64,000 nucleotides of DNA, from the IMG/VR virus record IMGVR_UViG_3300031759_000010; one strand, written 5' to 3'. The notes beneath the pieces were generated by a model. The model searched no databases. It saw nothing but the letters and a program-made list of their open reading frames with translations, and was not told where the DNA came from. This document shows positions 11,340-24,953 of the stretch, in pieces. This DNA comes from a virus. How positions within the stretch are numbered: the first letter of the stretch is position 1; each line of letters starts with the position of its first letter. Both the position numbers and the translations under genes were made by a program.

Positions 11340-11560
11340 AGGCTTGATTTTGTCCAGCGTTAGTGCGAAGATTGTTCTGCGGGGTGATTGTTTCACTCCT
11401 TCCCATATGACTCCTTGAGCAGAATCACATGGTCACCCCGCTCATCCCCCAAAAAAGCACAAAAAGAGCCCCCAGGTTGACATCCTCCCCTCCCTGAAGG
11501 AAGGGGATTCCTACGAGGGCGGCTTACGCCGCTCTTTCGGAGGGTTCCTGCTGCTGACGG
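11340..11560 (-). ncRNA. Candidate TnpB omega (right-end) RNA scaffold
   Basis: In this family the guide RNA overlaps the tnpB 3' end and right end. Here there is a 9-bp hairpin at 11486-11507 and a 9-bp long-range helix (11379-11387 with 11433-11441). Extent and guide are unknown. Confidence 0.3.
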
Positions 11561-12711
11561 CTTACATCGCCGTTCACTTCACAGGCTAACCGGGCGTGTC
11601 CCGCCCTTAGTACGTTGATTGCGCCGACTAGATCAGCGTTCTCCGCAAAGCCACATTCGACGCAAGCAAATTCTGCCTGTGTCTTGCGGTTTTCTCCTGA
11701 GACATGGCCACAATGTGGGCACGTCCGGGAAGTGTTCTGCGGTGGCACGGCCAGGAATAGGCCGCCCACCCAGAGCATTTTGTACTCCAGTTGCCGCCGG
11801 AATTCCGCCCAGCCCTGGTCGAGTATCGACCTGTTGAGACCGGCTTTGGCGCGGACGTTCCTGCCGGGTTGTTCGACAGTGCCAGCAGCAGACCGGGACA
11901 TATTGCTTACCTGCAAGTCTTCGACGACGACCATCGCGTGGTTTTTGCTGATGGTGGTAGAGGCTTTGTGCAGGTAGTCCCGACGGGCGTTGGCAATGCG
12001 AACATGGATGCGCTGGACTTGGGCTTTGGCCTTCTTCCAGTTGTTGCTGAACTTCTTCTTGCGGCTCATGGTCTGCTGCGCTTTACGCAGATCAGCAGCG
12101 TACCGCTTGAAGATGTTGAGAGGCGGATAGACGGTTCCATCCGAGAGCGTGGCAAAGCGCACAATCCCCATGTCGATGCCCACGGCAGCGCCCTGGGCGA
12201 CCGGCTGCTCGATTTCGCGCACGGTCTGAATAGAGATGAACCACTTGCCGTTGCTTGCGCTTACAGTGACATTTCTGACGGTGCCCAGCACCTCGCGGCT
12301 ATTGCGATACCGAACCCATCCGAGCTTGGGCAGGAAGATACGGTCGTTAGCCTGGTCCAGCTTGAAGCCTTGCGGGAAACGGAAACTATCTCCGAGCCCA
12401 CGCTTCTTGAATCGCGGGTATTCGGTTCGCTTCTCAAAGAAGTTGATGAAGGCGCGATCCAGGTTCTTGAGCGAGTGCTGCAGGGCTTGCGAAGGAGATT
12501 CCTTGAGCCACTCAAACTCGCTTTTCCATGCTGGAAGCAGGTTAGCCATCTCCACATAGCTGATGAACTTGTTTCCCGTTTCATGGTTGGCTGTTTGCAA
12601 CGCCAAGGCCTTGTTGAACACAAATCTGCATGACCCGGCAAAGCGGCGCATATCGCGCTCCTGATTACCGTCTGGCATGAGTTCAAACTTGAAAGCCTGA
12701 AGCCGTTGCAT
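11524..12711 (-). CDS. tnpB: TnpB (IS605 OrfB-type RNA-guided nuclease)
   Basis: N-terminus QAFKFELMPD, RuvC-like segments and the C-terminal zinc ribbon CPHCGH...CVECG. The ORF extends to 12879, but ATG 12711 gives the family-typical N-terminus. Confidence 0.9.
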   Translation of the reverse strand: MQRLQAFKFELMPDGNQERDMRRFAGSCRFVFNKALALQTANHETGNKFISYVEMANLLPAWKSEFEWLKESPSQALQHSLKNLDRAFINFFEKRTEYPRFKKRGLGDSFRFPQGFKLDQANDRIFLPKLGWVRYRNSREVLGTVRNVTVSASNGKWFISIQTVREIEQPVAQGAAVGIDMGIVRFATLSDGTVYPPLNIFKRYAADLRKAQQTMSRKKKFSNNWKKAKAQVQRIHVRIANARRDYLHKASTTISKNHAMVVVEDLQVSNMSRSAAGTVEQPGRNVRAKAGLNRSILDQGWAEFRRQLEYKMLWVGGLFLAVPPQNTSRTCPHCGHVSGENRKTQAEFACVECGFAENADLVGAINVLRAGHARLACEVNGDVSRQQQEPSERAA

Positions 12712-12733
12712 GACTTTATTGTATACTTGGTCT

Positions 12734-13156
12734 ATGCAGGGAAGCAATGATATTCGACATGGACGGCATTGTGTATTCAATATGCACGTACACTTGGTCT
12801 TTGTCACGAAATACCGGCGCGAAGTCTTCACCAAAGAGGTGCTTGACGATCTGCGAAGCATCTTTTCCGGTGTCTGCAACGACTTTGAAGCGGAACTGGT
12901 GGAATTCGATGGCGAAGACGACCATGTACACCTGCTCGTGAACTACCCCCCAAAGGTGGCTGTATCCAACCTCGTGAACAGTCTGAAAGGGGTGTCAAGC
13001 CGCATGATTCGCCAAAAGATGTACCCAAGCATCCGAAAGAAGCTATGGGGTGGGGCATTGTGGTCGCCAAGCTACTTCGCTGGCAGTTGCGGAGGCGCAC
13101 CCATCTCCGTCATTCGCCAGTACATAGAGCAACAACAGATAAACCCCGGAGGCTGA
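12734..13156 (+). CDS. tnpA: IS200/IS605 TnpA (Y1 HUH transposase)
   Basis: HCVFNMHVHLVFVTKYRR, HUH motif DHVHLLV, and SPSYFAGSCGGAPISVIRQYIEQQ with the catalytic Tyr region. Confidence 0.9.
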   Translation: MQGSNDIRHGRHCVFNMHVHLVFVTKYRREVFTKEVLDDLRSIFSGVCNDFEAELVEFDGEDDHVHLLVNYPPKVAVSNLVNSLKGVSSRMIRQKMYPSIRKKLWGGALWSPSYFAGSCGGAPISVIRQYIEQQQINPGG

Positions 13157-16475: not shown

Positions 16476-16781
16476 TTAGCTAGTGGTCAACTGTGCTTCG
16501 AGCTTCTTCAGCTCAGCCTCAAGCTCGGCCTTCTTCTGGGCCGGTGTCTTCAGGCTGTCGATACGGGCCGTCAGCTCACGCTTGCGGGCCTCCAGCTTGT
16601 CTGCGACACGAGAACGAATCTCGCGCTTCAAACTTGCAAGCTGAATTCCAACAAACTCCGGCTCGTCCAGTTGAAGAGCGTCATACTCGGCGCGAATCGC
16701 CTTTCCGAAGGCACACAGAGAGACAAGCTCGTCAACGTCCATGCGGTCTGCGGAAAAGTTCTTGAAAGTGCTGATGTTCAC
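16476..16781 (-). CDS. Coiled-coil protein
   Basis: 101-aa ORF, GTGA-coupled to the upstream gene. Heptad-like charged sequence. Confidence 0.55.
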   Translation of the reverse strand: MNISTFKNFSADRMDVDELVSLCAFGKAIRAEYDALQLDEPEFVGIQLASLKREIRSRVADKLEARKRELTARIDSLKTPAQKKAELEAELKKLEAQLTTS

Positions 16782-18241
16782 GCGTATACCTTATCCTTTC
16801 TCGTGTCTTTCAGCACGTCGTTGAGCGAGAGCAGAGGGGTGGCCATAATTTCATCGGCCAAACCATACACCCGGGTTCTCATTGTTGCCGCGAGGTTGGG
16901 AATCGAAAAATAATCCACTCCCCCGCGAATATCGAACGTCTGCATTTCGATACCGGCCCTGTTCATCGATCCCGACAGGTTCATCGAGCCGCCGCTGCAC
17001 TGATAGAAGTACACCGGAATTTCCTTGCCGACAAACTCCGCGTAGCGCTTGTACACATCCGCGAAATAGGGCGCGGTGTTTTCGTCGCCATCGGAGACAA
17101 TCGCGATCCCATCGATTTCGACCTTCTCCGACAACATCCGGTTCAGTCCGCACCCAATGGAGGTTCCACCGACAGCCCTGATGTGCCGAGTTGCCTTCTG
17201 AATTTCATCCAGGGGCATCCCGGTGACATCCACGGTTACCGGAGCGGTATCGAAGAACACCAGGTAGACCTTCCCCTGACAGATCTTGCTCAGGGTTGCA
17301 GCTACATGCTTCGCCGCCTCAATGGCGCTTCCCATGCTGCCGCTCTTGTCAGCCAAAACCAGCCAGTTCCCCTCGGGTCCGCCAAGCGCAGCAATCTGCT
17401 TGTCCTGCAAGCCGCGCAGCTTCTCCTTCAAGCCGCTATCGGAGACCGCTTCGGCCGCCCGGGTGGTCTTCAGGGTGTTCTTTTTGCTTGTCGCCGCCCT
17501 CTGGAGAGCCTCATCGAAGGCTCCACGGAGAGACGGGTTGCTCTTCAGGCCGAGCTTCTCCAACATCTTGACGTTGGTGGTAAGCTCGGTCGGCGTCATG
17601 CGCTCAATCAGGGCCCTGACAAGATCCGGCTGTTTTGCTTTCTCTCCCAACGCGCCCATGGCGATCAGGAAAGGGATCTTGAAGTGCATGATTGCCCCTG
17701 CGGCCTCGGTCGGCGACATCTCCGCCAGATGAGCAACGGCCTCAAACACGGAACCGCGAGGACGCTCTCCCTTGAAGAGAATCTTGTCCGCGTAAGCAGA
17801 CGGCGCTACATGCCCAAGAGCATACAGCTCCTTCAATGTGCCGCGATGCTGTACGGCCAGGTGGTCCCAGCCCTTCTGAGACTCCTTCTCGCGCAAATAT
17901 GCCTCTACCAGGCGGCGCAACTCCCGCATCTTGCCCTTGGGGCGTACCTCCAGGGCAAAACGATACGCTCTCGCCAGTTCACGCGGCCCCAGAAGGGCAA
18001 TATGCGCGAAGCTGTTGTCAAGCAGTTCGGGGTCGTTCTCATAGGCCAACCCGACGACCGGAAGAGCCACCTTCGAATCGCGAATCTGCCCTTTGAGGCG
18101 ATCCCATGCGATCAGGTGCTGGAAAAACTCGCCTTCCTGCTGGACTGCAACCTTACCGATAGGCAAATAGTCCTTCAGGGAGCCATGCGGTGACCGAGAC
18201 AACTCGGACACGATTCTGTTTCTCGTGATTCCAGTTTCCAT
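16778..18241 (-). CDS. vWA-domain protein with TROVE/Ro60-like N-terminal region
   Basis: C-terminal vWA domain with MIDAS LADKSGSM...GGTS...SDGDEN. N-terminal helical region resembles Rsr/Ro60 by eye, for example QHRGTLKELYALGHVAPS versus the Ro ..RDLLRLSHPKP segment. Strong RBS GAGGAGGA. Confidence 0.6.
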   Translation of the reverse strand: METGITRNRIVSELSRSPHGSLKDYLPIGKVAVQQEGEFFQHLIAWDRLKGQIRDSKVALPVVGLAYENDPELLDNSFAHIALLGPRELARAYRFALEVRPKGKMRELRRLVEAYLREKESQKGWDHLAVQHRGTLKELYALGHVAPSAYADKILFKGERPRGSVFEAVAHLAEMSPTEAAGAIMHFKIPFLIAMGALGEKAKQPDLVRALIERMTPTELTTNVKMLEKLGLKSNPSLRGAFDEALQRAATSKKNTLKTTRAAEAVSDSGLKEKLRGLQDKQIAALGGPEGNWLVLADKSGSMGSAIEAAKHVAATLSKICQGKVYLVFFDTAPVTVDVTGMPLDEIQKATRHIRAVGGTSIGCGLNRMLSEKVEIDGIAIVSDGDENTAPYFADVYKRYAEFVGKEIPVYFYQCSGGSMNLSGSMNRAGIEMQTFDIRGGVDYFSIPNLAATMRTRVYGLADEIMATPLLSLNDVLKDTRKDKVYA

Positions 18242-18267: not shown

Positions 18268-18810
18268 TTACGGAAGTGTGCGGTTCCTCAGATAATCAAC
18301 GTAGAAGTCATAGTCGTAACCCTCGGAAGCGCAAAATTCTTTCGGATCTCGTCCCCCCTTCAATTTATTCTCCCTGCGGCAACAACTCAGGTAGTTGGCG
18401 GTGCTGTTTTCTCCACCCATCTCCAGCGGAATAAAATGATCCACCGTCATCTGCACATCGCCCATCTTCCGGCCGCAATACCCACACTTGAAGCCGTCGG
18501 CAACCCACACCTTCTGCTGCACCGCGCCGCTGATTTCGTAGCGCAATTTGCGGTGAAAGGCCTTGGCTGGCATCACCAGAACTTCAGGGTTGTCGCTGCG
18601 CTGAAGGAAGTCAGTCCACTCTTCCATATCCAAATGGCACACGGCTGCACCCCTATTGAGATCCATACTGGTGCCGGGGAGCATGAGGACAGCCTGAGCG
18701 CCTTCGCCGCCAACCACAACACCCTCGATCTTCAAGAGATTGCCGATGTCGCCCTTCAAGGCGGAACGGTGCGCCAAGTCTAACTGGTAGAATCTGTCAA
18801 AACTGGACAT
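18268..18810 (-). CDS. HNH-domain protein with unknown ~90-aa N-terminal domain
   Basis: CGYCG...VDHFIPLEMGGENSTANYLSCCRRENKLKG. ATG 18810 is preceded by AAGGAGGGG. Confidence 0.8.
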   Translation of the reverse strand: MSSFDRFYQLDLAHRSALKGDIGNLLKIEGVVVGGEGAQAVLMLPGTSMDLNRGAAVCHLDMEEWTDFLQRSDNPEVLVMPAKAFHRKLRYEISGAVQQKVWVADGFKCGYCGRKMGDVQMTVDHFIPLEMGGENSTANYLSCCRRENKLKGGRDPKEFCASEGYDYDFYVDYLRNRTLP

Positions 18811-18825
18811 TTCCCCTCCTTTGAA

Positions 18826-18858
18826 GGACAAAACAAGCCCCCACTCGCCGAAGTGGGG
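18826..18858 (-). terminator. Rho-independent terminator closing the ncRNA locus
   Basis: Minus strand: CCCCACT-TCGGCG-AGTGGGG followed by GCTTGTTTTG. Confidence 0.7.
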
Positions 18859-18863
18859 AAGGG

Positions 18864-18977
18864 TGGCGGGGCTTCCCGTTATGAGCGGGAAACGCTCTTT
18901 CGAGCGGTCAAACCATGTAGCTCCTGACAGTGGTAGACGAATCTACAAGTCGTCTGAAGTTCCTGTTTAGAAGCCCC
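18864..18977 (-). ncRNA. Structured RNA candidate closed by an 8-bp terminal helix followed by GCCA
   Basis: GGGGCTTC (18977-18970) pairs with GAAGCCCC (18875-18868), followed by G-CCA. Internal hairpins are AGACGA/TCGTCT, CGCTC-GAAA-GAGCG and TTCCCG-CTCATAA-CGGGAA. It does not fold as a canonical cloverleaf. Confidence 0.35.
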
Positions 18978-18989
18978 GATAAAATTTCT

Positions 18990-19116
18990 GGCGTTAAGTT
19001 GTTTCTGGTTGTTTTCGCGCTTGACCTTCAAGCTAACCCCCCTCATGGTGGAGGGCGAAGGAATCGAACCTTCAACTCGGTCTCCCAAGGACATGTAACC
19101 AAATACAGTGAACGCC
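18990..19116 (-). ncRNA. Circularly permuted tRNA-like RNA (YrlA / bacterial Y-RNA-type candidate)
   Basis: Order on the minus strand: closing helices GGCGTT/AACGCC and TTTGGTT/AACCAGA; T-arm GAAGG-TTCGATT-CCTTC; acceptor-like hairpin GCCCTCC-ACCATGA-GGGGGGT; TA; D-arm GCTT-GAAGGTC-AAGC. Confidence 0.5.
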
Positions 19117-19125
19117 AAACCTACA

Positions 19126-19187
19126 GCGGAAGTCGAACCGGCTTTATTAGATTCATCAATGAGTCATGTAAGCCGATTCAGTACCGC
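19126..19187 (-). other. Extended imperfect RNA hairpin between the tRNA and the permuted tRNA-like element
   Basis: GAATCGGC (19179-19172) pairs with GCCGGTTC (19142-19135), with outer GCGG/CCGC pairs. It contains a T-loop-like GGTTCGACT but no acceptor stem. Confidence 0.25.
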
Positions 19188-19230
19188 CAAAACAAAAAAT
19201 ACTCCGTCAAATCTGTCAGCTATTACCGCT

Positions 19231-19306
19231 TGGTAAATGAAATGGGATTTGAACCCACTACCCTTCGCTTATTATGCAAATGCTCTACCGAGTGAGCTAT
19301 TCATTC
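19231..19306 (-). tRNA. tRNA, 76 nt, encoded CCA, anticodon AAU (Ile by canonical numbering)
   Basis: Hand-folded cloverleaf: acceptor GAATGAA/TTCATTT, D-arm GCTC-ACTCGGTA-GAGC, anticodon arm TTTGC-ATAATAA-GCGAA, T-arm GTGGG-TTCAAAT-CCCAT, then A-CCA. Confidence 0.85.
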
Positions 19307-19510
19307 GTGTAAGCTGCCAAGCAGACGGAATCTCTCAAAACCAAAACTCAAAACCTTCCTCATCTTGCCACTATCCCCAAACCAAGTCAAGAAAACTTTG
19401 GTAACCTGCGGGGCAACCAGTTCCTGGAAGAACCTTGAGGCCACCCCGCAAAACACACCGTCAGGAGATGATTTCAATGTACCACAATTCTGCGGCTACA
19501 ATGGAAAAAT

Positions 19511-20218: not shown

Positions 20219-20439
20219 TCCTCATCCTCGGGGTCTTCCTTTTTCTTCCCCTTGTGGGGCTCAGGCTCGTCGTCCTCATCCTCTTCATCGAGAATATCGG
20301 CCAGTTCCAAGGCTGGGCGGCGCACATCGAACGGATCAACTCTTCCCTTGACGTAGACGCGGCATTTCTTCGCCCCGGTCTCCTGGATGGCAATGATGCA
20401 GCACTCGCTGATAAACAGACCCTCTTCAACCTCGATCAT
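20209..20439 (-). CDS. Small protein with highly acidic C-terminus
   Basis: 76-aa ORF, ATGA-type coupled to the 1505-aa gene stop. Tail DILDEEDEDDEPEP...EDPEDEDQS. Confidence 0.5.
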   Translation of the reverse strand: MIEVEEGLFISECCIIAIQETGAKKCRVYVKGRVDPFDVRRPALELADILDEEDEDDEPEPHKGKKKEDPEDEDQS

Positions 20440-23400
20440 TGGAAGCTCCTTAGTTTTTCTCTCAACTCGTCCAGTTTAGCCTTGTCGGCATCGGTCAGAA
20501 GGGTTGAGTCAAGAAGTTCAAATGACTCATTTGAGTTAACGAATCCCTTAACCGAACCCCCTACTTTGAGGGCGGCGGTGCCGTCTCCCGGCCCTGAAGA
20601 ACCTTTTTTATTCCACTGGGCCCCTGCCGAACGAACGCGTCCCACAACTCCCGGATCTGTTTTTCTGAGGGAAGCCCAGTCTGGTTTTGGTTTTCTTGCT
20701 TCATCGATGAAACCCTCCTTCAACCGCCTTACTGCGTTGGTGGTGTGAGTCAGTTTCTGGAAACCCTGCACCCCGTACTCACGATACACCTGCTGGAAGA
20801 ACTTGAGAAGATAGGCTGTCGCCTCGTCAACCGTCAGACCGAATTCGCTCGGCTTGTCTGACATCAGCTTCGCGGTTGCCTCAAAAACACGCTGCTCAAC
20901 GCCGTTTTCAGACATGTCGCTCTTGTCCGGGTATCCGTTAGTCTCCAAATACAGCTCCAAGGGCTTGGGAATGGATTTGTCCATTTCCTTCATGCCGTAA
21001 ACCGACAACAGCCCCAGGTTCATCCTGATTTTCACAAGGCTTTCCTGCCACTTGTGATTCAGCTCTTCACGAAGAACGGCCAGTACGCTGTGAATCTTCT
21101 CTCCGCGAGGAAGAAAGGAAACAATAGCCCCTCCATCATAATTCTGCCCAATCCTCAAGAGCTTATTCAGCTCCTCTGGAGGGTTCATGATCTTCGCTTG
21201 GTTGAAGTAGTGCTTGTATGCGTCGGGACTAATCGAGCATCCGCGCGATTCGTAGTCCAGGTTCTCCTTGCCGTCAAATGTGGTATTCAGCGCCCTCAAT
21301 CCCTTGCGGCTCAGGAACACAATCTTCGTTCCGTCGGAGGATTTACGCACCTCACCCAACCCACGACCATCAAGGTCGAGGTATTTTTTAACTGCCATAT
21401 CGCGCTTCAACACAAGCGGAAGATTCGCCCGCATCCAGTCCTGATGACGCTTCAGCCACTTGTCGGTTCCGAATTGCGCGTCCGGGGTCTCTGGAGGAGC
21501 CATCTTCTTCAATTGCTCGGATATCTCCTCCAACTCCTTCTTGGCGGCAGCAACTTCCTTTGGACCGGCGGTATTCGGGTCCACATAGATCTTGTTGAAG
21601 AACGGCTGGTCGAGGTCGGCGGAGCGGTAGATGAGGTTTTGGTGGAATCCGGGAACAGGGACTTCTCCGCCAGGATGTACGCCTCCGTCACCACCCTGTT
21701 GTCCTCTGGCGTGAGCCATTTCGGAACGCAGTTCTTCGCCCCCAAAAATATCGGGTGAAGATTCGCTTCTCCCACGGCTTTCCCGATAGATTTGAAGCGG
21801 TCCACTAAGGTCTTCGCGTATTCTTGTGCTGTCATTGGGGTCTGCATAAATCTTCCTCAGCTCGTTGAGAGCCTTGACCTCCATCTCACCCAGGGACCGG
21901 GCTATTCTCACCTCTCCAGTGGTAAACGACTGGTTGTGCCCTTTATAGGTGTCGTGAAGAATCTCATGTTTGATGGTGTGCCACACCGAGCTTGCGGCCT
22001 GGTATGGATTTTCTCCGATTTGATTAAATGGATCAATGAAAATTGTCGCCTTTGACGTGTCGGCCGGATTGGGAATATACACGCCGTGAACCTTGTCGGA
22101 AAACACAATCCCGATACGATCTATTCCGGACCCGGTTCCATGAATCTCCGACCCCTTCAGCATGTCAATGGCCCCGCGGGCCAAACTCTGAATCTTGGAC
22201 GCGATTTTAATCACCTGGGCATTGGCGGAAATCTCTTTCATCTCCTCCAGAGTGAACCTTTGCCCCGAGTCGAACAGCGGAATATCCTTCCGCCCCTTGA
22301 AGGTGGGAAGGCTGTTGTAGATACCGGCAACGGTGTTCCGATGGCCCTGCACGACAGGATCAATCACCCTCTCCTGAATCAGCTTTTTGATATCGCTCGA
22401 AGCCTCATCGCGAAGCGACTCCCTGTTCAGCAAGAACGGATAATCCGGATTGCCCTCGGGGACGGTGGCGTGAACGTCTATAGCCACGCGCGAAGGAAGG
22501 CCCCTCACCCCCTCCGGGACGTCCATGTACATCATGAACTGGTAAATTCCGTTGTTGTGGACCTCGACGTTTAGCTTGTTCCACCTGTCAAAAGCCTTGT
22601 CACCCTTGACCTTGCTGATATACAGGTCCATATCAGCGCCCTGATAGTGCTCTGTGCTGTCCGGGGCGCTTGGAAGCTGCTTGGCCTCCTCTGGGCCTAC
22701 CTCGTGCCCATTACTAATCACCTTGATGGTTGCCGGAGGGCGAAGAGACAGCCTTGAAGAACCCAGGTATTCGTAAGCCCCGTACATGTACGCATTGTCG
22801 GGGAGCTTGCAAAGCACAGAGGTTCCGGTCGGCTCAGGGGTGGACAGTTTTTCGGTGTGAATATCAACACCGCCACCCAACAGGTCTTCCGGGGTAGCCT
22901 CGAAGGTATGGCGATAAAGAGATCCACCCTCATTGACAACCGTTGTCACCTTGATGCTCTTGCTCATCATGAGCGGAGCCGCCTTGGCCAGACCAAAACC
23001 TCCGGAGGCGGTAACATCATCACGTTTACCGCTGGAGCCGAGATCGGTAAACACCGTCTCCAGCTCATTCTTGGTCATCCCCTTGCCGGTGTCCTTGACC
23101 TGAATGGTGTGTTCATAGTCATCGACAGACACCGTGACGTTCTTATCTCCTGACTCTCCGCGCACCGCGTCCATGGCGTTCTGAACCAGCTCTTTCGTGA
23201 TAACCATCGAGCTGTTTGAGCCATAAAGACTGGACCCGAGAAGTTTGCCGAGAGCAGCGGGATCAGCGCCCAGCTTCAGCTTACCCTCGGAAGAACGAGC
23301 CTCCTGAACGCCAGAACCATCCTGTGGATCCGACACCTTGAACATGGGGGCGTCGGCGGTTCCGCCGATCTTGTCCACCCTGCCAAACCTCTTCTCCAGC

Positions 23401-24953
23401 TCGGACTTCAAGAGGCTGCCATTCAGACCGGCAAACTTACGCGGCGTCTTGGGCAGGTTCACAAAGGCATCCCCACCCGGTTTCACGGCATCGCGGATCT
23501 GATCGAGGGTTTTGCCAAGCATTTCCGGAGAAGACTGAACATTCAAGACGTTTGAGGCGTACACATGGTCGTACTTCCGGCTCAGGGCGTCAAAATCATG
23601 AAAACCAGGCCTTGCATTGGAGCCAAAATCGTGCGCCGTGACATTAAGGCCCCTCCCTCTTAGATCGCGGGCGTGACCGGCATCCACTCCGGCACCAAAA
23701 TCAAGAATCGACTCCCCGGGACGAGCGATAGAGGCCACATGCCTCGGCACAACAGCGTTTTTCCCAACCGCGCCAGAGGAGCGAGAGGTTTTGTTCGCAA
23801 CAGACACATCCTCGGGGCTGAATTGGGGCTGAGGGGCCATCTTGGTATCAACCTTCCCCTCTATAGGTGCCACCGGAGCCTCAGATTTGACCTCTGTGGC
23901 CTCCGTGGAGGCTTTGGCTGGCGACATATCCTTCTTGAGGTGAGAGCCGCTTAAAAAGGCAAAAAGAGCATCCACGCTGGAGGTTGTAACCTCCTCGGAG
24001 AAGCTGATCGCATCACCCTTCTTTGCGGCTTTGACTGCCTTCTGGAACCCCTCGGCGGCCGACTTCGCCATGCTGTAGGTAAAACCAAGGTCCACCATCA
24101 TCCTGACCAGGCGGAATGGGGCCATTACCGTCATCAGGCCAATAAGGGCGAGATTCTCTGGATTGCTCAGGCCATCAGCAACCTGACGCCCGCCCGCCTC
24201 AACCCCGCGAACCATGTTGACCACCGACCAGCCGCGATCTTTGATCTCGTCAATCTTCTTCTGGTCGTTCGCGTTGTAGACGTTGATCAGGTCACGCAGC
24301 GGGCTGCTGGTCATCGCCTTATATTTCTCGGCCTCGGCCTCCGGTACACCCTTGCTGATCAGGTACTTCTTGTTTTCTTCTGGCGTGAGTTCCGGACCGG
24401 CGTACTTTTCCAACCCCTTCACCAGCTTCGGCAGAAGCGGCTCCGACATGGCGGGAAAAGTCGCGTTCTCTATAGTCTTGACGTCCGGTGCCGGGGCCCC
24501 GCGCAGCTTCATCTGCCGCTGGTGCTCCGACTCCTCGGTGGTGATTCCGGTTGGAGTCGGAGACTTCCAGTGAATCTGACCCTTGTGCTTGGCGATAGCC
24601 GCAGCAATATGCTCATCCGGCATCTCGTCCGGAAACTTCCAGGGAGACAGAATGTTGGACATGTGGAGCTGGCGCTGGTGCTCCGACTCCTCGGTGGTGA
24701 TTCCGGTTGGAGTCGGAGACTTCCAGTGAATCTGAGCGGCGCGGCTCTTGGCAATCTTCGGAGACAGAATGTTGGGCATGTGGAGCTGGCGCTGGTGCTC
24801 CGACTCCTCGGTGGTGATTCCGGTTGGAGTCGGAGACTTCCAGTGAATCTGACCCTTGTGCTTGGCGATAGCCGCAGCAATATGCTCATCCGGCATCTCG
24901 TCCGGAAACTTGACCACGCCCAACCCGTCCACCTTGACCAGCTTGTCGCTCAT
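20436..24953 (-). CDS. Polyvalent giant virion-type protein: N-terminal triple repeat + SAM-methyltransferase + GHKL (HATPase_c-like) ATPase + HExxH metallopeptidase-like region
   Basis: Motif I ILDFGAGVD (nt ~23680). GHKL motifs ELVQNAMDAV, VKDTGKGM and SGGFGLAKAA (nt ~22950-23200). HEILH (nt ~21950). Confidence 0.8.
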   Translation of the reverse strand: MSDKLVKVDGLGVVKFPDEMPDEHIAAAIAKHKGQIHWKSPTPTGITTEESEHQRQLHMPNILSPKIAKSRAAQIHWKSPTPTGITTEESEHQRQLHMSNILSPWKFPDEMPDEHIAAAIAKHKGQIHWKSPTPTGITTEESEHQRQMKLRGAPAPDVKTIENATFPAMSEPLLPKLVKGLEKYAGPELTPEENKKYLISKGVPEAEAEKYKAMTSSPLRDLINVYNANDQKKIDEIKDRGWSVVNMVRGVEAGGRQVADGLSNPENLALIGLMTVMAPFRLVRMMVDLGFTYSMAKSAAEGFQKAVKAAKKGDAISFSEEVTTSSVDALFAFLSGSHLKKDMSPAKASTEATEVKSEAPVAPIEGKVDTKMAPQPQFSPEDVSVANKTSRSSGAVGKNAVVPRHVASIARPGESILDFGAGVDAGHARDLRGRGLNVTAHDFGSNARPGFHDFDALSRKYDHVYASNVLNVQSSPEMLGKTLDQIRDAVKPGGDAFVNLPKTPRKFAGLNGSLLKSELEKRFGRVDKIGGTADAPMFKVSDPQDGSGVQEARSSEGKLKLGADPAALGKLLGSSLYGSNSSMVITKELVQNAMDAVRGESGDKNVTVSVDDYEHTIQVKDTGKGMTKNELETVFTDLGSSGKRDDVTASGGFGLAKAAPLMMSKSIKVTTVVNEGGSLYRHTFEATPEDLLGGGVDIHTEKLSTPEPTGTSVLCKLPDNAYMYGAYEYLGSSRLSLRPPATIKVISNGHEVGPEEAKQLPSAPDSTEHYQGADMDLYISKVKGDKAFDRWNKLNVEVHNNGIYQFMMYMDVPEGVRGLPSRVAIDVHATVPEGNPDYPFLLNRESLRDEASSDIKKLIQERVIDPVVQGHRNTVAGIYNSLPTFKGRKDIPLFDSGQRFTLEEMKEISANAQVIKIASKIQSLARGAIDMLKGSEIHGTGSGIDRIGIVFSDKVHGVYIPNPADTSKATIFIDPFNQIGENPYQAASSVWHTIKHEILHDTYKGHNQSFTTGEVRIARSLGEMEVKALNELRKIYADPNDSTRIREDLSGPLQIYRESRGRSESSPDIFGGEELRSEMAHARGQQGGDGGVHPGGEVPVPGFHQNLIYRSADLDQPFFNKIYVDPNTAGPKEVAAAKKELEEISEQLKKMAPPETPDAQFGTDKWLKRHQDWMRANLPLVLKRDMAVKKYLDLDGRGLGEVRKSSDGTKIVFLSRKGLRALNTTFDGKENLDYESRGCSISPDAYKHYFNQAKIMNPPEELNKLLRIGQNYDGGAIVSFLPRGEKIHSVLAVLREELNHKWQESLVKIRMNLGLLSVYGMKEMDKSIPKPLELYLETNGYPDKSDMSENGVEQRVFEATAKLMSDKPSEFGLTVDEATAYLLKFFQQVYREYGVQGFQKLTHTTNAVRRLKEGFIDEARKPKPDWASLRKTDPGVVGRVRSAGAQWNKKGSSGPGDGTAALKVGGSVKGFVNSNESFELLDSTLLTDADKAKLDELREKLRSFQ
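24518..24909. repeat. Three in-frame coding repeats at the 5' end of the 1505-aa gene
   Basis: A 60-nt core (GCTGGTGCTCCGACTCC...CAGTGAATCTGA) occurs at 24518, 24674 and 24791. A second ~59-nt module occurs at 24578 and 24851. Together they encode IHWKSPTPTGITTEESEHQRQ repeats. Confidence 0.9.

What the first reader, a model, noticed from the sequence alone, without database searches (positions are those of the whole stretch)
18990..19116. Circularly permuted tRNA-like module (T-arm, closed acceptor hairpin, D-arm)
On the minus strand the elements occur in this order:
- a canonical T-arm, GAAGG-TTCGATT-CCTTC;
- GCCCTCC-ACCATGA-GGGGGGT, a 7-bp acceptor-type stem closed by a loop containing ACCA, with a G-U at the position equivalent to 3:70;
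- TA;
- a D-arm, GCTT-GAAGGTC-AAGC, with a GG in the loop.

The whole module is enclosed by two helices, GGCGTT/AACGCC and TTTGGTT/AACCAGA, where a tRNA would have its anticodon stem. This is the topology reported for YrlA-type Y RNAs, whose ends lie in the stem bound by Ro. I could not assign a Ro-binding bulged helix by eye.
Basis: partly seen in the sequence, partly recalled or inferred. Interest (0 to 1): 0.7.

Follow-up and report, generated by a model that had tools for sequence, protein, structure and literature searches.

The report
Phage Y RNA with permuted tRNA-like domain
This is a real, conserved small structured RNA gene of a soil phage: a YrlA-type "Y RNA" with a tRNA-shaped domain, sitting just upstream of a very divergent Ro60-like protein, and it belongs to an undescribed phage lineage in which one conserved stem is joined to tRNA-shaped bodies in several arrangements.

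Summary
On the minus strand, 19116..18990 holds two enclosing helices, a GNRA-capped variable-arm hairpin, a T arm, a closed 7-bp acceptor-like hairpin (loop ACCAUGA, G3:U70-equivalent), UA and a D arm.

- **Conservation.** A covariance model built only from 26 relatives scores the window at 128.8 bits (E 1e-31). In 35 homologues, 31 of 34 base pairs show compensatory changes.
- **Neighbouring protein.** The 487-aa ORF 740 nt downstream on the same strand has no sequence-level TROVE match. Its predicted structure aligns full length to Ro60/Rsr and to phage Ro60.
- **Family membership.** The YrlA reading is supported in topology and context, but strict membership is not. Rfam YrlA gives 19.4 bits against a threshold of 69. 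The GNCGAA motif reads GGCGUU here. The lineage has its own conserved stem motifs: (U)ACUG, UACAUG, GCGAAAA and CGACUU.
- **Surroundings.** The same stem also encloses a canonical tRNA-Ile (19329..19203) and a stem-only RNA (19188..19125). In inverted topology it sits inside a CCA-ended tRNA-like RNA (18977..18864).

Most likely function: it is the RNA partner of the phage Ro-like ring, with the tRNA-like elbow recruiting host tRNA-binding enzymes. RNase P cleavage to a CCA-ended two-piece form is plausible but untested.

Verdict: new variant of a known kind.

The parts
19111..19116 (-). P1 5' strand GGCGUU. This is the outer helix. It corresponds in position to the GNCGAA-bearing terminal helix of YrlA.
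   Evidence: All 6 pairs covary and 99% of cells are paired. Also recovered by RNAalifold.
19104..19110 (-). CACUGUA. CAC is the 5' side of the conserved internal loop. UGU forms a 3-bp helix with ACA on the 3' side. The family consensus is (U)ACUGN.
   Evidence: The U:G/A, G:C and N:N' pairs covary (cols 14-16 with 128-130).
19097..19103 (-). P2 5' strand UUUGGUU.
   Evidence: 6 of 7 pairs show a change on both sides.
19092..19097 (-). UACAUG motif. It is nearly invariant in the family (ACAUG 28/35, ACACG 6/35). Its UAC lies in the position of YrlA's conserved YUAY.
   Evidence: PMC4201824.
19076..19089 (-). Hairpin in the variable-arm position: CUUGG-GAGA-CCGAG.
   Evidence: helix 3 shows 74% of cells paired and all 5 pairs with compensatory changes.
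19057..19073 (-). T arm: GAAGG-UUCGAUU-CCUUC.
   Evidence: 100% of cells paired; T-loop UUCGA in 32/35.
19036..19056 (-). Closed acceptor-like hairpin: GCCCUCC (positions 66-72 equivalent), loop ACCAUGA (19049-19043), GGGGGGU (positions 1-7 equivalent). It carries a G3:U70 equivalent, an A73 equivalent and an encoded CCA.
   Evidence: (7 of 7 pairs compensated, 99% paired).
19019..19035 (-). UA linker (U8/A9 equivalent) plus D arm GCUU-GAAGGUC-AAGC, with GG in the loop.
   Evidence: UA is the linker in 28/35.
19011..19018 (-). GCGAAAAC, the conserved junction between the D arm and P2 (family consensus GCGAAAAN).
19004..19010 (-). P2 3' strand AACCAGA.
18996..19003 (-). AACAACUU, the 3' side of the internal loop (family consensus NCGACUU). 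Infernal aligned the ACUU(G) of relative L057 to the AaAcUuG of the Rfam YrlA consensus.
18990..18995 (-). P1 3' strand AACGCC.
19203..19329 (-). Upstream sister element 'T'. The same frame encloses a canonical tRNA-Ile(AAU) with encoded CCA (19306-19231). Frame parts: P1 UCCGUC/GACGGA, P2 CAGCU/AGCUG, UACACG, ACAGAUUU.
   Evidence: 28.8 bits. The class is supported in 16 loci by RNAalifold.
19125..19188 (-). Sister element 'U', the frame only: GGCGG-UACUGAA-UCGGCU-UACAUG...AGCCGG-UUCGACUU-CCGCU.
   Evidence: 23.6 bits, E 1e-5 in 800 nt.
18864..18977 (-). Sister element 'D', with inverted topology. It has an open 7-bp stem GGGGCUU/AAGCCCC followed by GCCA. The frame lies inside, with P1 capped by UUCG (GUAGA-UUCG-UCUAC), then CACUG and CUACAUGG. 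A GAAA hairpin follows, then a hairpin in the T-arm position with loop CUCAUAA.
   Evidence: Homologues in about 20 loci. Aligned with 18 of them.
18828..18859 (-). Intrinsic-terminator-like hairpin UCCCCACU-UCGG-CGAGUGGGGG plus CUUGUUUUGU. It closes the RNA cluster.
18268..18831 (-). HNH endonuclease ORF between the RNA cluster and the Ro-like gene. It is absent at this position in many relatives, where the RNA abuts the Ro-like gene.
   Evidence: Distances taken.
16778..18241 (-). 487-aa Ro60-like protein: a helical-repeat domain plus a vWA domain with an invariant DxSxS MIDAS motif.

Best explanation
The element is a stable non-coding RNA of the YrlA (Y RNA-like) kind, encoded by a tailed phage of soil and peat metagenomes.

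**How it is built (shown).** Its 5' and 3' ends pair into a long bulged stem: P1, then an internal loop (CAC opposite ACUU), then the 3-bp helix UGU/ACA, then P2. The stem is flanked by the conserved UACAUG and GCGAAAA.

**What the stem does (inferred).** It is the docking module for the phage's own Ro60-like ring protein, which is encoded 740 nt downstream on the same strand.

**What the tRNA-like part does (inferred).** The rest folds as a circularly permuted tRNA body: V hairpin, T arm, 7-bp acceptor stem closed by a loop, and D arm. Its elbow mimics tRNA. By analogy with characterised Y RNAs, it tethers the Ro-like ring to a host tRNA- or RNA-handling factor such as PNPase, or gates access to the ring. 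That would redirect RNA surveillance or decay during infection.

**Transcription (inferred).** It is made as part of a four-RNA cluster (T, U, M, D) that ends at the terminator at 18859-18828.

**Possible cleavage (inferred, less certain).** The acceptor stem is 7 bp and the loop starts with ACCA. RNase P could cleave 5' of GGGGGGU, and 3' trimming would leave ...GCCCUCC-ACCA. That would give a nicked two-piece tRNA mimic, as shown experimentally for M. smegmatis YrlA.
For: **Structure and conservation**
- The model built without the window scores it at 128.8 bits.
- 31 of 34 pairs are compensated across 35 homologues.
- An independent RNAalifold run agrees.

**Synteny**
- All 35 strong hits lie on the strand of the Ro-like gene, 15-1900 nt upstream of it.
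- In the 64-kb window, the default scan with that model finds the frame only in this cluster (elements M and T); the filters-off scan that adds U covered only 18700-19500.

**Protein partner**
- The AlphaFold model has pLDDT 79.
- Its top 13 PDB matches are all Ro60, Rsr or phage Ro60, aligned full length.
- BFVD matches include 'Ro-like RNA binding protein' and 'TROVE' proteins.
- phrog_850 'RNA-binding protein' matches at E 9e-9.
- The MIDAS residues D298, S300 and S302 are invariant.

**Link to YrlA**
- Rfam YrlA is the best non-tRNA hit here. It reaches 45.4 bits, E 6e-9, over the full model in relative L057.
- That alignment places L057's GACU (the 3' CGACUU-type motif of the frame) under the AaAcUuG of YrlA.
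- UAC corresponds to YUAY (PMC4201824).

**Precedent**
- Y RNAs are encoded upstream of Ro60 in mycobacteriophages and in Thermus phage phiLo. In phiLo, Ro60, Yrl RNA and host PNPase form a complex (PMC4201824, PMC12135203).

**Cleavage idea**
- The acceptor stem is 7 bp in nearly all members.
- NCCA starts the loop in 9 of 35 members, against 0.7 expected (p about 3e-8). Those loops are longer.
- M. smegmatis YrlA, which has a 7-bp stem, is cleaved by RNase P and carries CCA in vivo (PMC4201824).
Against: - No expression or binding data exist. Everything about function is inferred.
- Rfam YrlA is far below its gathering score here (19.4 against 69).
- The published Ro60-contact motif GNCGAA reads GGCGUU in the window. 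The P1 5' strand covaries rather than being conserved. Recognition, if any, must therefore differ from canonical Ro60.
- The protein has no sequence-level similarity to any solved Ro60, even with a profile. Pfam TROVE is not detected. Related DUF2828/DUF7788-type vWA proteins also appear among the fold matches.
- The window's D loop deviates from the tRNA consensus (G14 and C21 equivalents) and may close into a 6-bp hairpin.
- ACCA is absent from the closest relatives' loops (GACAAUGU, GACAUGA, AACAUGA). In this copy it could be a one-base accident.
Confidence: 0.75

Rival explanations
1. The conserved stems are processing scaffolds, not protein-docking Y RNA stems. The leader and trailer would pair like the RNase III stems around rRNAs, directing excision and maturation of tRNA or tRNA-like units from a polycistronic transcript. 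Element M would be a by-product or a degenerate unit.
For: The same frame encloses a canonical tRNA-Ile in the window and tRNAs in at least 20 related loci. In relatives the clusters lie inside large phage tRNA arrays.
Against: - Only the units next to the Ro-like gene are framed. The dozens of other tRNAs in the same arrays are not.
- Stem-only units with nothing to excise exist (U; short hits in L026, L036 and L063).
- Single-stranded sequence motifs are conserved while the helices covary. This pattern is typical of protein recognition.
- The architecture and the 3' motif match YrlA.
Confidence: 0.08
2. After RNase P cleavage and trimming, M becomes a two-piece, alanine-accepting tRNA mimic. 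Its main role would be on the ribosome or with AlaRS/EF-Tu, like the tRNA-like domain of tmRNA. Ro binding would be secondary or absent.
For: - M has a G3:U70 equivalent, an A73 equivalent and an encoded CCA in a 7-bp stem.
- G:U is enriched specifically at position 3:70 (5 of 35, each with A at position 73, against at most 1 at other positions).
- Sister 'type 2a' RNAs in relatives carry GGGGGGC/GCCCUCC-ACCA as open ends.
- Infernal gives a weak tmRNA_permuted hit over the T arm plus CCUCCACCA (17.5 bits).
Against: - There is no tag reading frame and no pseudoknots.
- ARAGORN, which detects permuted tmRNAs, finds none in the window.
- The tmRNA_permuted score is far below its threshold of 47.
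- Most family members close the acceptor with 4-8-nt loops, including GUGA, UUCG and GAAA, and have no CCA.
- The closest relatives lack both CCA and G3:U70.
Confidence: 0.07
3. The tRNA-shaped RNAs of the cluster are decoys or sponges for host tRNA-targeting defence nucleases or modification enzymes. The Ro-like protein would stabilise or present them.
For: - The framed tRNAs have well-formed 7-nt anticodon loops, but the anticodon is not conserved between orthologous positions (AAU, UCA, CUU, UGU, UUC, AUU, UGA, CAU). That would fit diversifying selection.
- In bacteria, Ro60/YrlA sits in an RNA-repair operon induced by damaged tRNAs (PMC7790460).
- Jumbo-phage TROVE proteins have been grouped with RNA-repair systems (PMC7824862).
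Against: - M itself has no anticodon loop.
- No RNA ligase or kinase-phosphatase was detected among the 8 ORFs flanking the RNA cluster (13.5-25 kb); further ORFs were scanned with Pfam or PHROGs alone and many ORFs were not scanned.
- The idea is purely inferential.
Confidence: 0.07
4. It is a cis-acting 5' leader, such as an attenuator or translational operator, of the HNH/Ro-like mRNA rather than a separate RNA. Alternatively it is a permuted but functional tRNA gene.
For: It lies upstream of and on the same strand as the ORFs.
Against: - A terminator-like hairpin with a U tract separates the RNA cluster from the ORFs.
- The distance and the intervening gene content vary (15-1900 nt, with or without the HNH gene).
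- M has no anticodon arm, so it cannot decode.
- There were no Rfam cis-regulatory hits.
Confidence: 0.03

Closest known systems
YrlA Y RNAs (Rfam RF02553; Chen et al. 2014, PMC4201824; structure PDB 6CU1, bioRxiv 10.1101/312249)
   Same: - The ends pair into a long stem.
- The interior runs V region, T arm, closed acceptor-like stem-loop, UA linker, D arm.
- It is encoded upstream of, and on the same strand as, a Ro60-type gene.
- UAC lies where YUAY lies in YrlA. In relative L057, ACUU(G) aligns 5' of the terminal 3' strand; the window's CAACUU occupies the same position.
- Tandem sister RNAs are present, like YrlB.
- A 7-bp acceptor stem, as in M. smegmatis YrlA, which is cut by RNase P and carries CCA.
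   Different: - It scores 19.4 bits against the gathering score of 69. The best relative reaches 45.4.
- GNCGAA reads GGCGUU, and that strand covaries across the family.
- It has its own conserved motifs: (U)ACUG, UACAUG, GCGAAAA, CGACUU.
- It has a GNRA-capped V hairpin.
- CCA is encoded in the loop in a quarter of members.
- The partner protein is Ro-like by fold only.
Phage Ro60 with Y RNA-like RNAs (mycobacteriophages, PMC4201824; Thermus phage phiLo phiRo60 with Yrl1/Yrl2, PMC12135203, PDB 9KOP/9L5Y)
   Same: Phage-encoded Ro-type protein, with two or more Y-like RNAs immediately upstream. The predicted fold of the window protein matches 9KOP and 9L5Y among its top hits.
   Different: - phiLo Yrl RNAs were picked by a CGAA motif and a stem-bulge-stem shape. 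No tRNA-like domain is described for them in the passages I read.
- Here there is no CGAA on the 5' strand, but there are tRNA-like bodies in several topologies.
- Only one record in GenBank phages, an uncultured 595-kb phage, has a detectable homologue of the protein (33% identity).
Two-piece (circularly permuted) tmRNA
   Same: The gene order is 3' tRNA half, then CCA, then spacer, then 5' tRNA half. G3:U70, A73 and CCA identity elements are present, with a T arm adjacent to the acceptor.
   Different: No tag ORF, no pseudoknots, and about 126 nt in total. ARAGORN is negative. Rfam tmRNA_permuted gives 17.5 bits against 47.
Circularly permuted tRNA genes (e.g. Cyanidioschyzon merolae). Recalled from my own knowledge, not tested here.
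   Same: The 3' half precedes the 5' half, and the acceptor strands are joined by a short intervening sequence that starts after the discriminator or CCA position.
   Different: Those genes yield normal tRNAs with an anticodon arm after processing. M has no anticodon arm and its termini lie in a conserved protein-binding-type stem. Some relatives of M (L076:2358-2508, L031:3018-3166, L045) do retain an anticodon arm.

Membership tests
YrlA (Y RNA-like A) | Encoded within about 4 kb of a Ro60 orthologue, on the same strand | tested here: met
   The module ends 740 nt upstream of ORF 18241..16778 on the minus strand. All 35 strong homologues lie 15-1900 nt upstream of the orthologous gene. Caveat: the protein is Ro60-like by predicted fold only.
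YrlA (Y RNA-like A) | T stem-loop, closed acceptor-like stem-loop, UA and D stem-loop in this 5'-to-3' order, preceded by a V region | tested here: met
   sequence; Infernal alignment to YrlA positions 28-81; covariation in every helix; 128.8 bits with the model built without the window.
YrlA (Y RNA-like A) | The 5' and 3' ends pair to form the stem that carries the Ro60 site | tested here: met
   P1 is 99% paired with 6 of 6 pairs compensated. P2 has 6 of 7 pairs compensated. RNAalifold agrees.
YrlA (Y RNA-like A) | GNCGAAN0-1G motif near the 5' end (PMC4201824) | tested here: not met
   The window reads GGCGUUCAC: GNCG is present but AA is replaced by UU. Across the family the strand covaries. 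GNCG occurs in 17 of 35 members (GGCG 12, GACG 3, GCCG 2). GGCGAA occurs in L008 and L045 (2 of 35).
YrlA (Y RNA-like A) | Reaches the Rfam RF02553 gathering score (69 bits) | tested here: not met
   19.4 bits, E 0.31, as a local match to model positions 28-81. There was no hit at gathering threshold. Relatives score 25-45 bits.
YrlA (Y RNA-like A) | Conserved YUAY at the start of the V region, and tRNA tertiary-interaction nucleotides (U8, A14, G18G19, T-loop UUCRA, Levitt pair) | tested here: inconclusive
   Present: UUAC (19098-19095), U8, GG in the D loop, UUCGA in the T loop, and an A15/U48-type pair is possible. However, the A14 and A21 equivalents are G and C in the window, where relatives have A.
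YrlA (Y RNA-like A) | Bound by Ro60/Rsr; modified by TruB and DusA | not testable with these tools
   Needs immunoprecipitation or EMSA, and modification mapping.
Ro60/TROVE protein (for the partner ORF) | Helical-repeat ring plus a C-terminal vWA domain with a MIDAS motif | tested here: met
   The AlphaFold model (pLDDT 79) has a helical region (residues 7-286 in the model) and a vWA domain (from about residue 293). Foldseek's top 13 PDB hits are Ro60, Rsr or phage Ro60 over 484-536 columns, TM 0.53-0.67. D298, S300 and S302 are invariant.
Ro60/TROVE protein (for the partner ORF) | Sequence match to Pfam TROVE or to solved Ro60 sequences | tested here: not met
   Pfam gives only weak vWA hits. 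phmmer and a profile search against PDB sequences gave zero hits at E up to 10.
Two-piece tmRNA | Tag-peptide reading frame, pseudoknots, and detection by ARAGORN or Rfam | tested here: not met
   ARAGORN finds no tmRNA in the window. Rfam tmRNA_permuted gives 17.5 bits against 47. The element is only 126 nt.
Functional (permuted) tRNA gene | An anticodon stem-loop | tested here: not met
   The D arm is followed by GCGAAAAC and then the P2 3' strand, with no anticodon arm. ARAGORN and Rfam call only the neighbouring tRNA-Ile.

The most novel reading that the evidence does not exclude
This uncultured phage lineage, possibly infecting Acidobacteriaceae, has a modular 'Ro-stem plus tRNA' system. 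One conserved protein-docking stem is fused to tRNA bodies in three circular permutations:
1. around a whole tRNA;
2. at the anticodon or variable side of an acceptor-closed tRNA body (this finding);
3. in place of the anticodon arm of a CCA-ended tRNA-like RNA.

A subset of these RNAs carry the full AlaRS identity set (G3:U70, A73, CCA). They would be processed by RNase P and aminoacylated. The Ro-like ring would then carry charged, or chargeable, tRNA mimics, linking Ro/Y RNA biology directly to tRNA charging or translation. The lineage would also provide living intermediates for the proposed origin of Y RNAs from tRNAs.
Probability: 0.15. Interest if true: 0.85.

Novelty: new variant of a known kind. 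Interest (0 to 1): 0.6.

Why it matters
Y RNAs and Ro60 are conserved from bacteria to humans, yet what the tRNA-like domain of bacterial Y RNAs is for remains open.

This lineage offers three things:
1. A Ro-type protein so divergent that sequence methods miss it, paired with a Y RNA whose docking stem has different conserved nucleotides. That is a natural experiment on how Ro rings recognise RNA.
2. About 35 covarying homologues, enough for a new covariance model that would find these RNAs in metagenomes where Rfam YrlA fails.
3. Side-by-side RNAs in which the same stem is attached to a whole tRNA, to a permuted acceptor-closed tRNA body, and to a CCA-ended tRNA-like body. Encoded NCCA and G3:U70 recur among them.

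This makes two ideas directly testable: that Y RNAs derive from tRNAs, and that some are cleaved, CCA-ended and possibly charged. So far the second rests on a single case, M. smegmatis.

Tried and rejected
**Searches that found nothing**
- blastn ('distant' mode) of the 900-nt region against GenBank phages: no match.
- phmmer and a profile search of the 487-aa protein against PDB sequences: no hits, so the fold comparison was needed.
- Pfam on the protein: only sub-threshold vWA hits, no TROVE.
- Rfam at gathering threshold over the whole window: only the tRNA.
- Pfam and PHROGs on the 8 ORFs flanking the cluster (13.5-25 kb), looking for RNA-repair enzymes (RtcB, Rnl, Pnkp): none. Further ORFs got Pfam or PHROGs only, also with none. 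Many ORFs were not scanned.
- tblastn of the protein against GenBank phages: one hit only.

**Readings considered and rejected**
- tmRNA or two-piece tmRNA: ARAGORN negative, 17.5 bits, no tag.
- Self-cleaving ribozyme flanks: no Rfam ribozyme hit at E up to 10.
- My first idea that 'TACATG' alone marks family members. It is not enriched window-wide (21 matches against 15.9 expected). It also occurs by chance in the D loop of an ordinary tRNA-Ala in L001.
- My first parse of 19233..19117 as one element. The model without the window showed it to be the 3' half of the framed tRNA plus a separate stem-only element.

**Technical failures and limits**
- A first regex script for the inverted-topology elements returned nothing because of lazy matching. 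It was rewritten.
- The covariance model cannot see element D, because D is a circular permutation of the model.
- Two review papers on bacterial Y RNAs are not held in the library.
Full report
**1. What is in the sequence**

Read on the minus strand, 19116..18990 contains, in this order:

| Part | Sequence | Coordinates |
|---|---|---|
| P1 5' strand | GGCGUU | 19116-19111 |
| Internal loop and mini-helix | CACUGUA | 19110-19104 |
| P2 5' strand | UUUGGUU | 19103-19097 |
| Junction (motif UACAUG = 19097-19092) | ACAUGUC | 19096-19090 |
| Spacer | UU | 19075-19074 |
| T arm | GAAGG-UUCGAUU-CCUUC | 19073-19057 |
| Closed 7-bp acceptor-like hairpin | GCCCUCC-ACCAUGA-GGGGGGU | 19056-19036 |
| Linker | UA | 19035-19034 |
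| D arm | GCUU-GAAGGUC-AAGC | 19033-19019 |
| Junction | GCGAAAAC | 19018-11 |
| P2 3' strand | AACCAGA | 19010-19004 |
| 3' side of internal loop | AACAACUU | 19003-18996 |
| P1 3' strand | AACGCC | 18995-18990 |

In the acceptor-like hairpin, the third pair counted from the open end is G:U. The first loop bases are A-C-C-A. RNAfold returns essentially this structure (-50.5 kcal/mol, z = -3.1).

**2. It is a conserved RNA, not a chance look-alike**

I fetched 82 loci from IMG/VR and JGI/ENA metagenomes, using the neighbouring 487-aa protein as bait.

- A first covariance model (window plus one homologue) found 35 strong matches. All lie on the strand of the protein gene and upstream of it.
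- On that alignment, 93% of cells are paired, against 40-46% when partners are slid by 1-3 columns. 31 of 34 pairs have changes on both sides. None of 500 shuffles reached the observed values.
- That alignment is fitted to the model, so I repeated the test with plain MAFFT plus RNAalifold on 16 diverse members. P1, the T arm, the acceptor and the D arm were recovered, with 26 of 30 pairs compensated.
- That run also revealed a conserved 3-bp helix inside what I had drawn as an internal loop. The UGN of (U)ACUGN pairs with the N'CG of N'CGACUU.
- I then rebuilt the model from 26 relatives without the window. It scores the window element at 128.8 bits, E 1.5e-31.

**3. Context**

The window is a tailed-phage genome. 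It has a major head protein, portal, large terminase, tail-fibre-like proteins, a DnaB-type helicase and a replication initiator.

Downstream of the element on the same strand lie three features:
- a terminator-like hairpin with a U tract (18859-18828);
- an HNH endonuclease ORF (18831-18268);
- a 487-aa ORF (18241-16778).

The 487-aa ORF shows only weak vWA matches in Pfam and a match to phrog_850 'RNA-binding protein'. It has no sequence-level match to any PDB chain, even with a 26-sequence profile.

Its AlphaFold2 model (mean pLDDT 79) tells a different story.
- It aligns over about 500 columns to Thermus phage phiLo Ro60 (9KOP, 9L5Y), human and Xenopus Ro60 (9NEN, 1YVP) and Deinococcus Rsr (2NVO). 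E-values run from 3e-9 to 3e-7 and TM-scores from 0.53 to 0.67.
- It also matches phage proteins annotated 'Ro-like RNA binding protein' and 'TROVE domain-containing'.
- The MIDAS residues DxSxS are invariant in the family.

The protein family has hundreds of members in metagenomes (874 with E <= 0.001). In GenBank phages it has a single relative, at 33% identity, in an uncultured 595-kb phage. Two MAG contigs that carry it are binned as Acidobacteriaceae. That is a weak hint at the host.

In relatives the RNA often abuts the Ro-like gene, 15-90 nt away in L027, L029, L031, L035, L043, L057 and L061. The HNH gene is therefore an insertion, not part of the unit.

**4. Relation to YrlA**

The published definition of YrlA (PMC4201824) has four parts:
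- it is encoded within about 4 kb of Ro60, on the same strand;
- it has a GNCGAAN0-1G motif near the 5' end;
- it has V, T, closed acceptor-like and D stem-loops that mimic tRNA;
- its ends pair.

How the window element compares:
- Topology, order of arms, the UA linker, a YUAY-type UUAC before the V region, and synteny are all met.
- Infernal's best non-tRNA hit on the element is YrlA, but only locally and weakly: 19.4 bits against a gathering score of 69. Relatives reach 25-45 bits, some over the whole model.
- In the alignment of relative L057, its GACU (CGACUU-type frame motif) falls under YrlA's AaAcUuG, just 5' of the terminal 3' strand.
- From this I infer that P1 corresponds to YrlA's terminal helix, the one that carries GNCGAA. 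The window has GGCGUU there.
- Across the family this strand covaries. GNCG occurs in 17 of 35 members and GGCGAA in two, L008 and L045.
- What is conserved in this lineage is (U)ACUG, UACAUG (ACAUG 28/35, ACACG 6/35), GCGAAAA and CGACUU.

The element therefore works like a YrlA and is probably a distant relative. It fails two formal membership criteria. I file it as a new variant of the kind, not a plain member.

**5. The acceptor loop**

The 7-bp stem matters. In M. smegmatis, the YrlA with a 7-bp stem is cleaved by RNase P and its 5' half ends in CCA in vivo. The 6-bp Salmonella YrlA is not cleaved (PMC4201824).

- In this family the stem is 7 bp in nearly all members.
- The loop begins with NCCA in 9 of 35 members, against 0.7 expected from loop composition (binomial p about 3e-8, ignoring relatedness). 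CCA at offset 1 occurs 9 times, against 1 at each neighbouring offset. Those nine members have at least seven different stem sequences.
- Loops with NCCA are longer than the others (7-18 nt against mostly 4-9 nt). The others include GUGA, UUCG and GAAA tetraloops.
- G:U occurs five times at the 3:70-equivalent position, each time with A at position 73. It occurs at most once at any other acceptor position.

They could be relics of a tandem-tRNA origin or signals for processing into a two-piece, possibly AlaRS-recognisable, mimic.

For the window copy specifically, caution is needed. Its closest relatives have GACAAUGU, GACAUGA or AACAUGA and a G3:C70 pair. One or two substitutions would create both features here.

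**6. The surroundings hold three more RNAs built on the same stem**

- **Element T (19329..19203).** The model built without the window also hits 19335..19194 (28.8 bits). There, P1 (UCCGUC/GACGGA), P2 (CAGCU/AGCUG), UACACG and ACAGAUUU enclose the only tRNA of the window. It is a canonical tRNA-Ile(AAU) with encoded CCA (57 bits). Its G1 is the last base of the UACACG motif.
- **Framed tRNAs elsewhere.** Such framed tRNAs recur in at least 20 loci. RNAalifold on 16 of them gives 31 pairs, 25 of them compensated. Their anticodons are not conserved.
- **Element U (19188..19125).** With filters off, the model finds a stem-only element at 23.6 bits.
- **Element D (18977..18864).** This has the inverse topology. 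An open 7-bp stem GGGGCUU/AAGCCCC is followed by GCCA. Inside it lies the same frame, with P1 capped by a UUCG tetraloop.
- **Relatives of D.** A script found about 20 such elements in relatives. All end in NCCA. They include GGGGGGC...GCCCUCC-ACCA (G3:U70, A73) and GCCGGGU...ACCCGGC-UCCA. They align with D.
- **Variants of M.** Some M-type relatives keep a complete anticodon arm after the D arm.

The frame is thus the constant part, and tRNA bodies are attached to it in different circular permutations. A default-filter scan of the whole 64-kb window finds the frame only in this cluster (elements M and T); the filters-off scan that adds U covered only 18700-19500.

**7. Mechanism**

*Shown:* a conserved, covarying, tRNA-like structured RNA gene, syntenic with a Ro-fold protein.

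*Inferred from characterised systems* (Deinococcus RYPER as summarised in PMC4201824; phiLo Ro60-Yrl-PNPase, PMC12135203):
- The bulged P1/P2 stem docks on the Ro-like ring.
- The tRNA-like elbow recruits a host factor.
- The phage thereby redirects RNA surveillance or decay.

*Inferred more weakly:* RNase P cleavage at G19042 and a CCA 3' end.

*Rivals:* a processing scaffold, a tmRNA-like alanine acceptor, a decoy for tRNA-targeting defences, or a cis leader. These are listed with their evidence in the Rival explanations section. None explains the synteny, the stem-only elements and the YrlA-like architecture as well.

**8. Verdict**

Novelty: a new variant of the YrlA/Y RNA kind in an undescribed phage lineage. 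It comes with a fold-only Ro60 homologue, a different conserved docking stem and several tRNA/stem fusion topologies. Interest: 0.6.

Noticed in passing
window 19203-19329 (-): The only tRNA of the window, tRNA-Ile with the unusual anticodon AAU and an encoded CCA, is nested inside the same conserved P1/P2 stem as the finding. Its G1 is the last base of the UACACG motif. At least 20 related loci have such 'framed' tRNAs, with non-conserved anticodons including UCA (opal-reading) and malformed loops.
   Followed up: partly
window 19125-19188 (-): A stem-only mini Y-like RNA: GGCGG-UACUGAA-UCGGCU-UACAUG...AGCCGG-UUCGACUU-CCGCU. It scores 23.6 bits with the family model. Similar 75-95-nt elements sit directly in front of the Ro-like gene in L026, L036 and L063.
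   Followed up: partly
window 18864-18977 (-); L001:2860-2976, L001:2985-3104 and about 20 others: tRNA-like RNAs with open 7-bp acceptor stems and encoded NCCA, in which the anticodon arm is replaced by the same conserved stem capped by a tetraloop. One subgroup has GGGGGGC/GCCCUCC-ACCA (G3:U70, A73), almost the same acceptor as the finding. Neither Rfam nor ARAGORN calls them tmRNA; Rfam's tRNA model does match one of them with a large insertion (L020:1060-1176, 46.7 bits).
   Followed up: partly
L076:2358-2508, L031:3018-3166, L045:1462-1618, L064:3228-3375, L065:1021-1175: M-type relatives that retain a full anticodon stem-loop after the D arm (loops CUUCAAA, CUCAUAA, CUUAUAA). These are complete permuted tRNAs with a closed acceptor, whose termini lie in the variable region.
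   Followed up: no
window 11524-12879 (-): A TnpB / IS605 OrfB-like ORF (OrfB_IS605 3e-29, Cas12f1-like TNB 3e-20, HTH_OrfB) inside the phage genome.
   Followed up: no
window 20436-24953 (-): A 1505-aa ORF just upstream of the RNA cluster, with a methyltransferase domain and a GHKL ATPase domain (RIIA-like by PHROGs).
   Followed up: no
L083 (MAG contig DAIDGW010000244.1) and L002, L005, L016, L024, L032: In relatives the Ro-like gene and its RNAs are embedded in arrays of about 13-22 tRNA genes within the fetched loci, including suppressor-like tRNAs (UUA, UCA). The window phage has lost, or never had, the array. Two carrier contigs are binned as Acidobacteriaceae.
   Followed up: partly
L037:3307-3752: ARAGORN calls a permuted tmRNA (tmRNA*) that overlaps a Y-like element and the start of the Ro-like gene. 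This is probably a false positive triggered by the tRNA-like halves.
   Followed up: no
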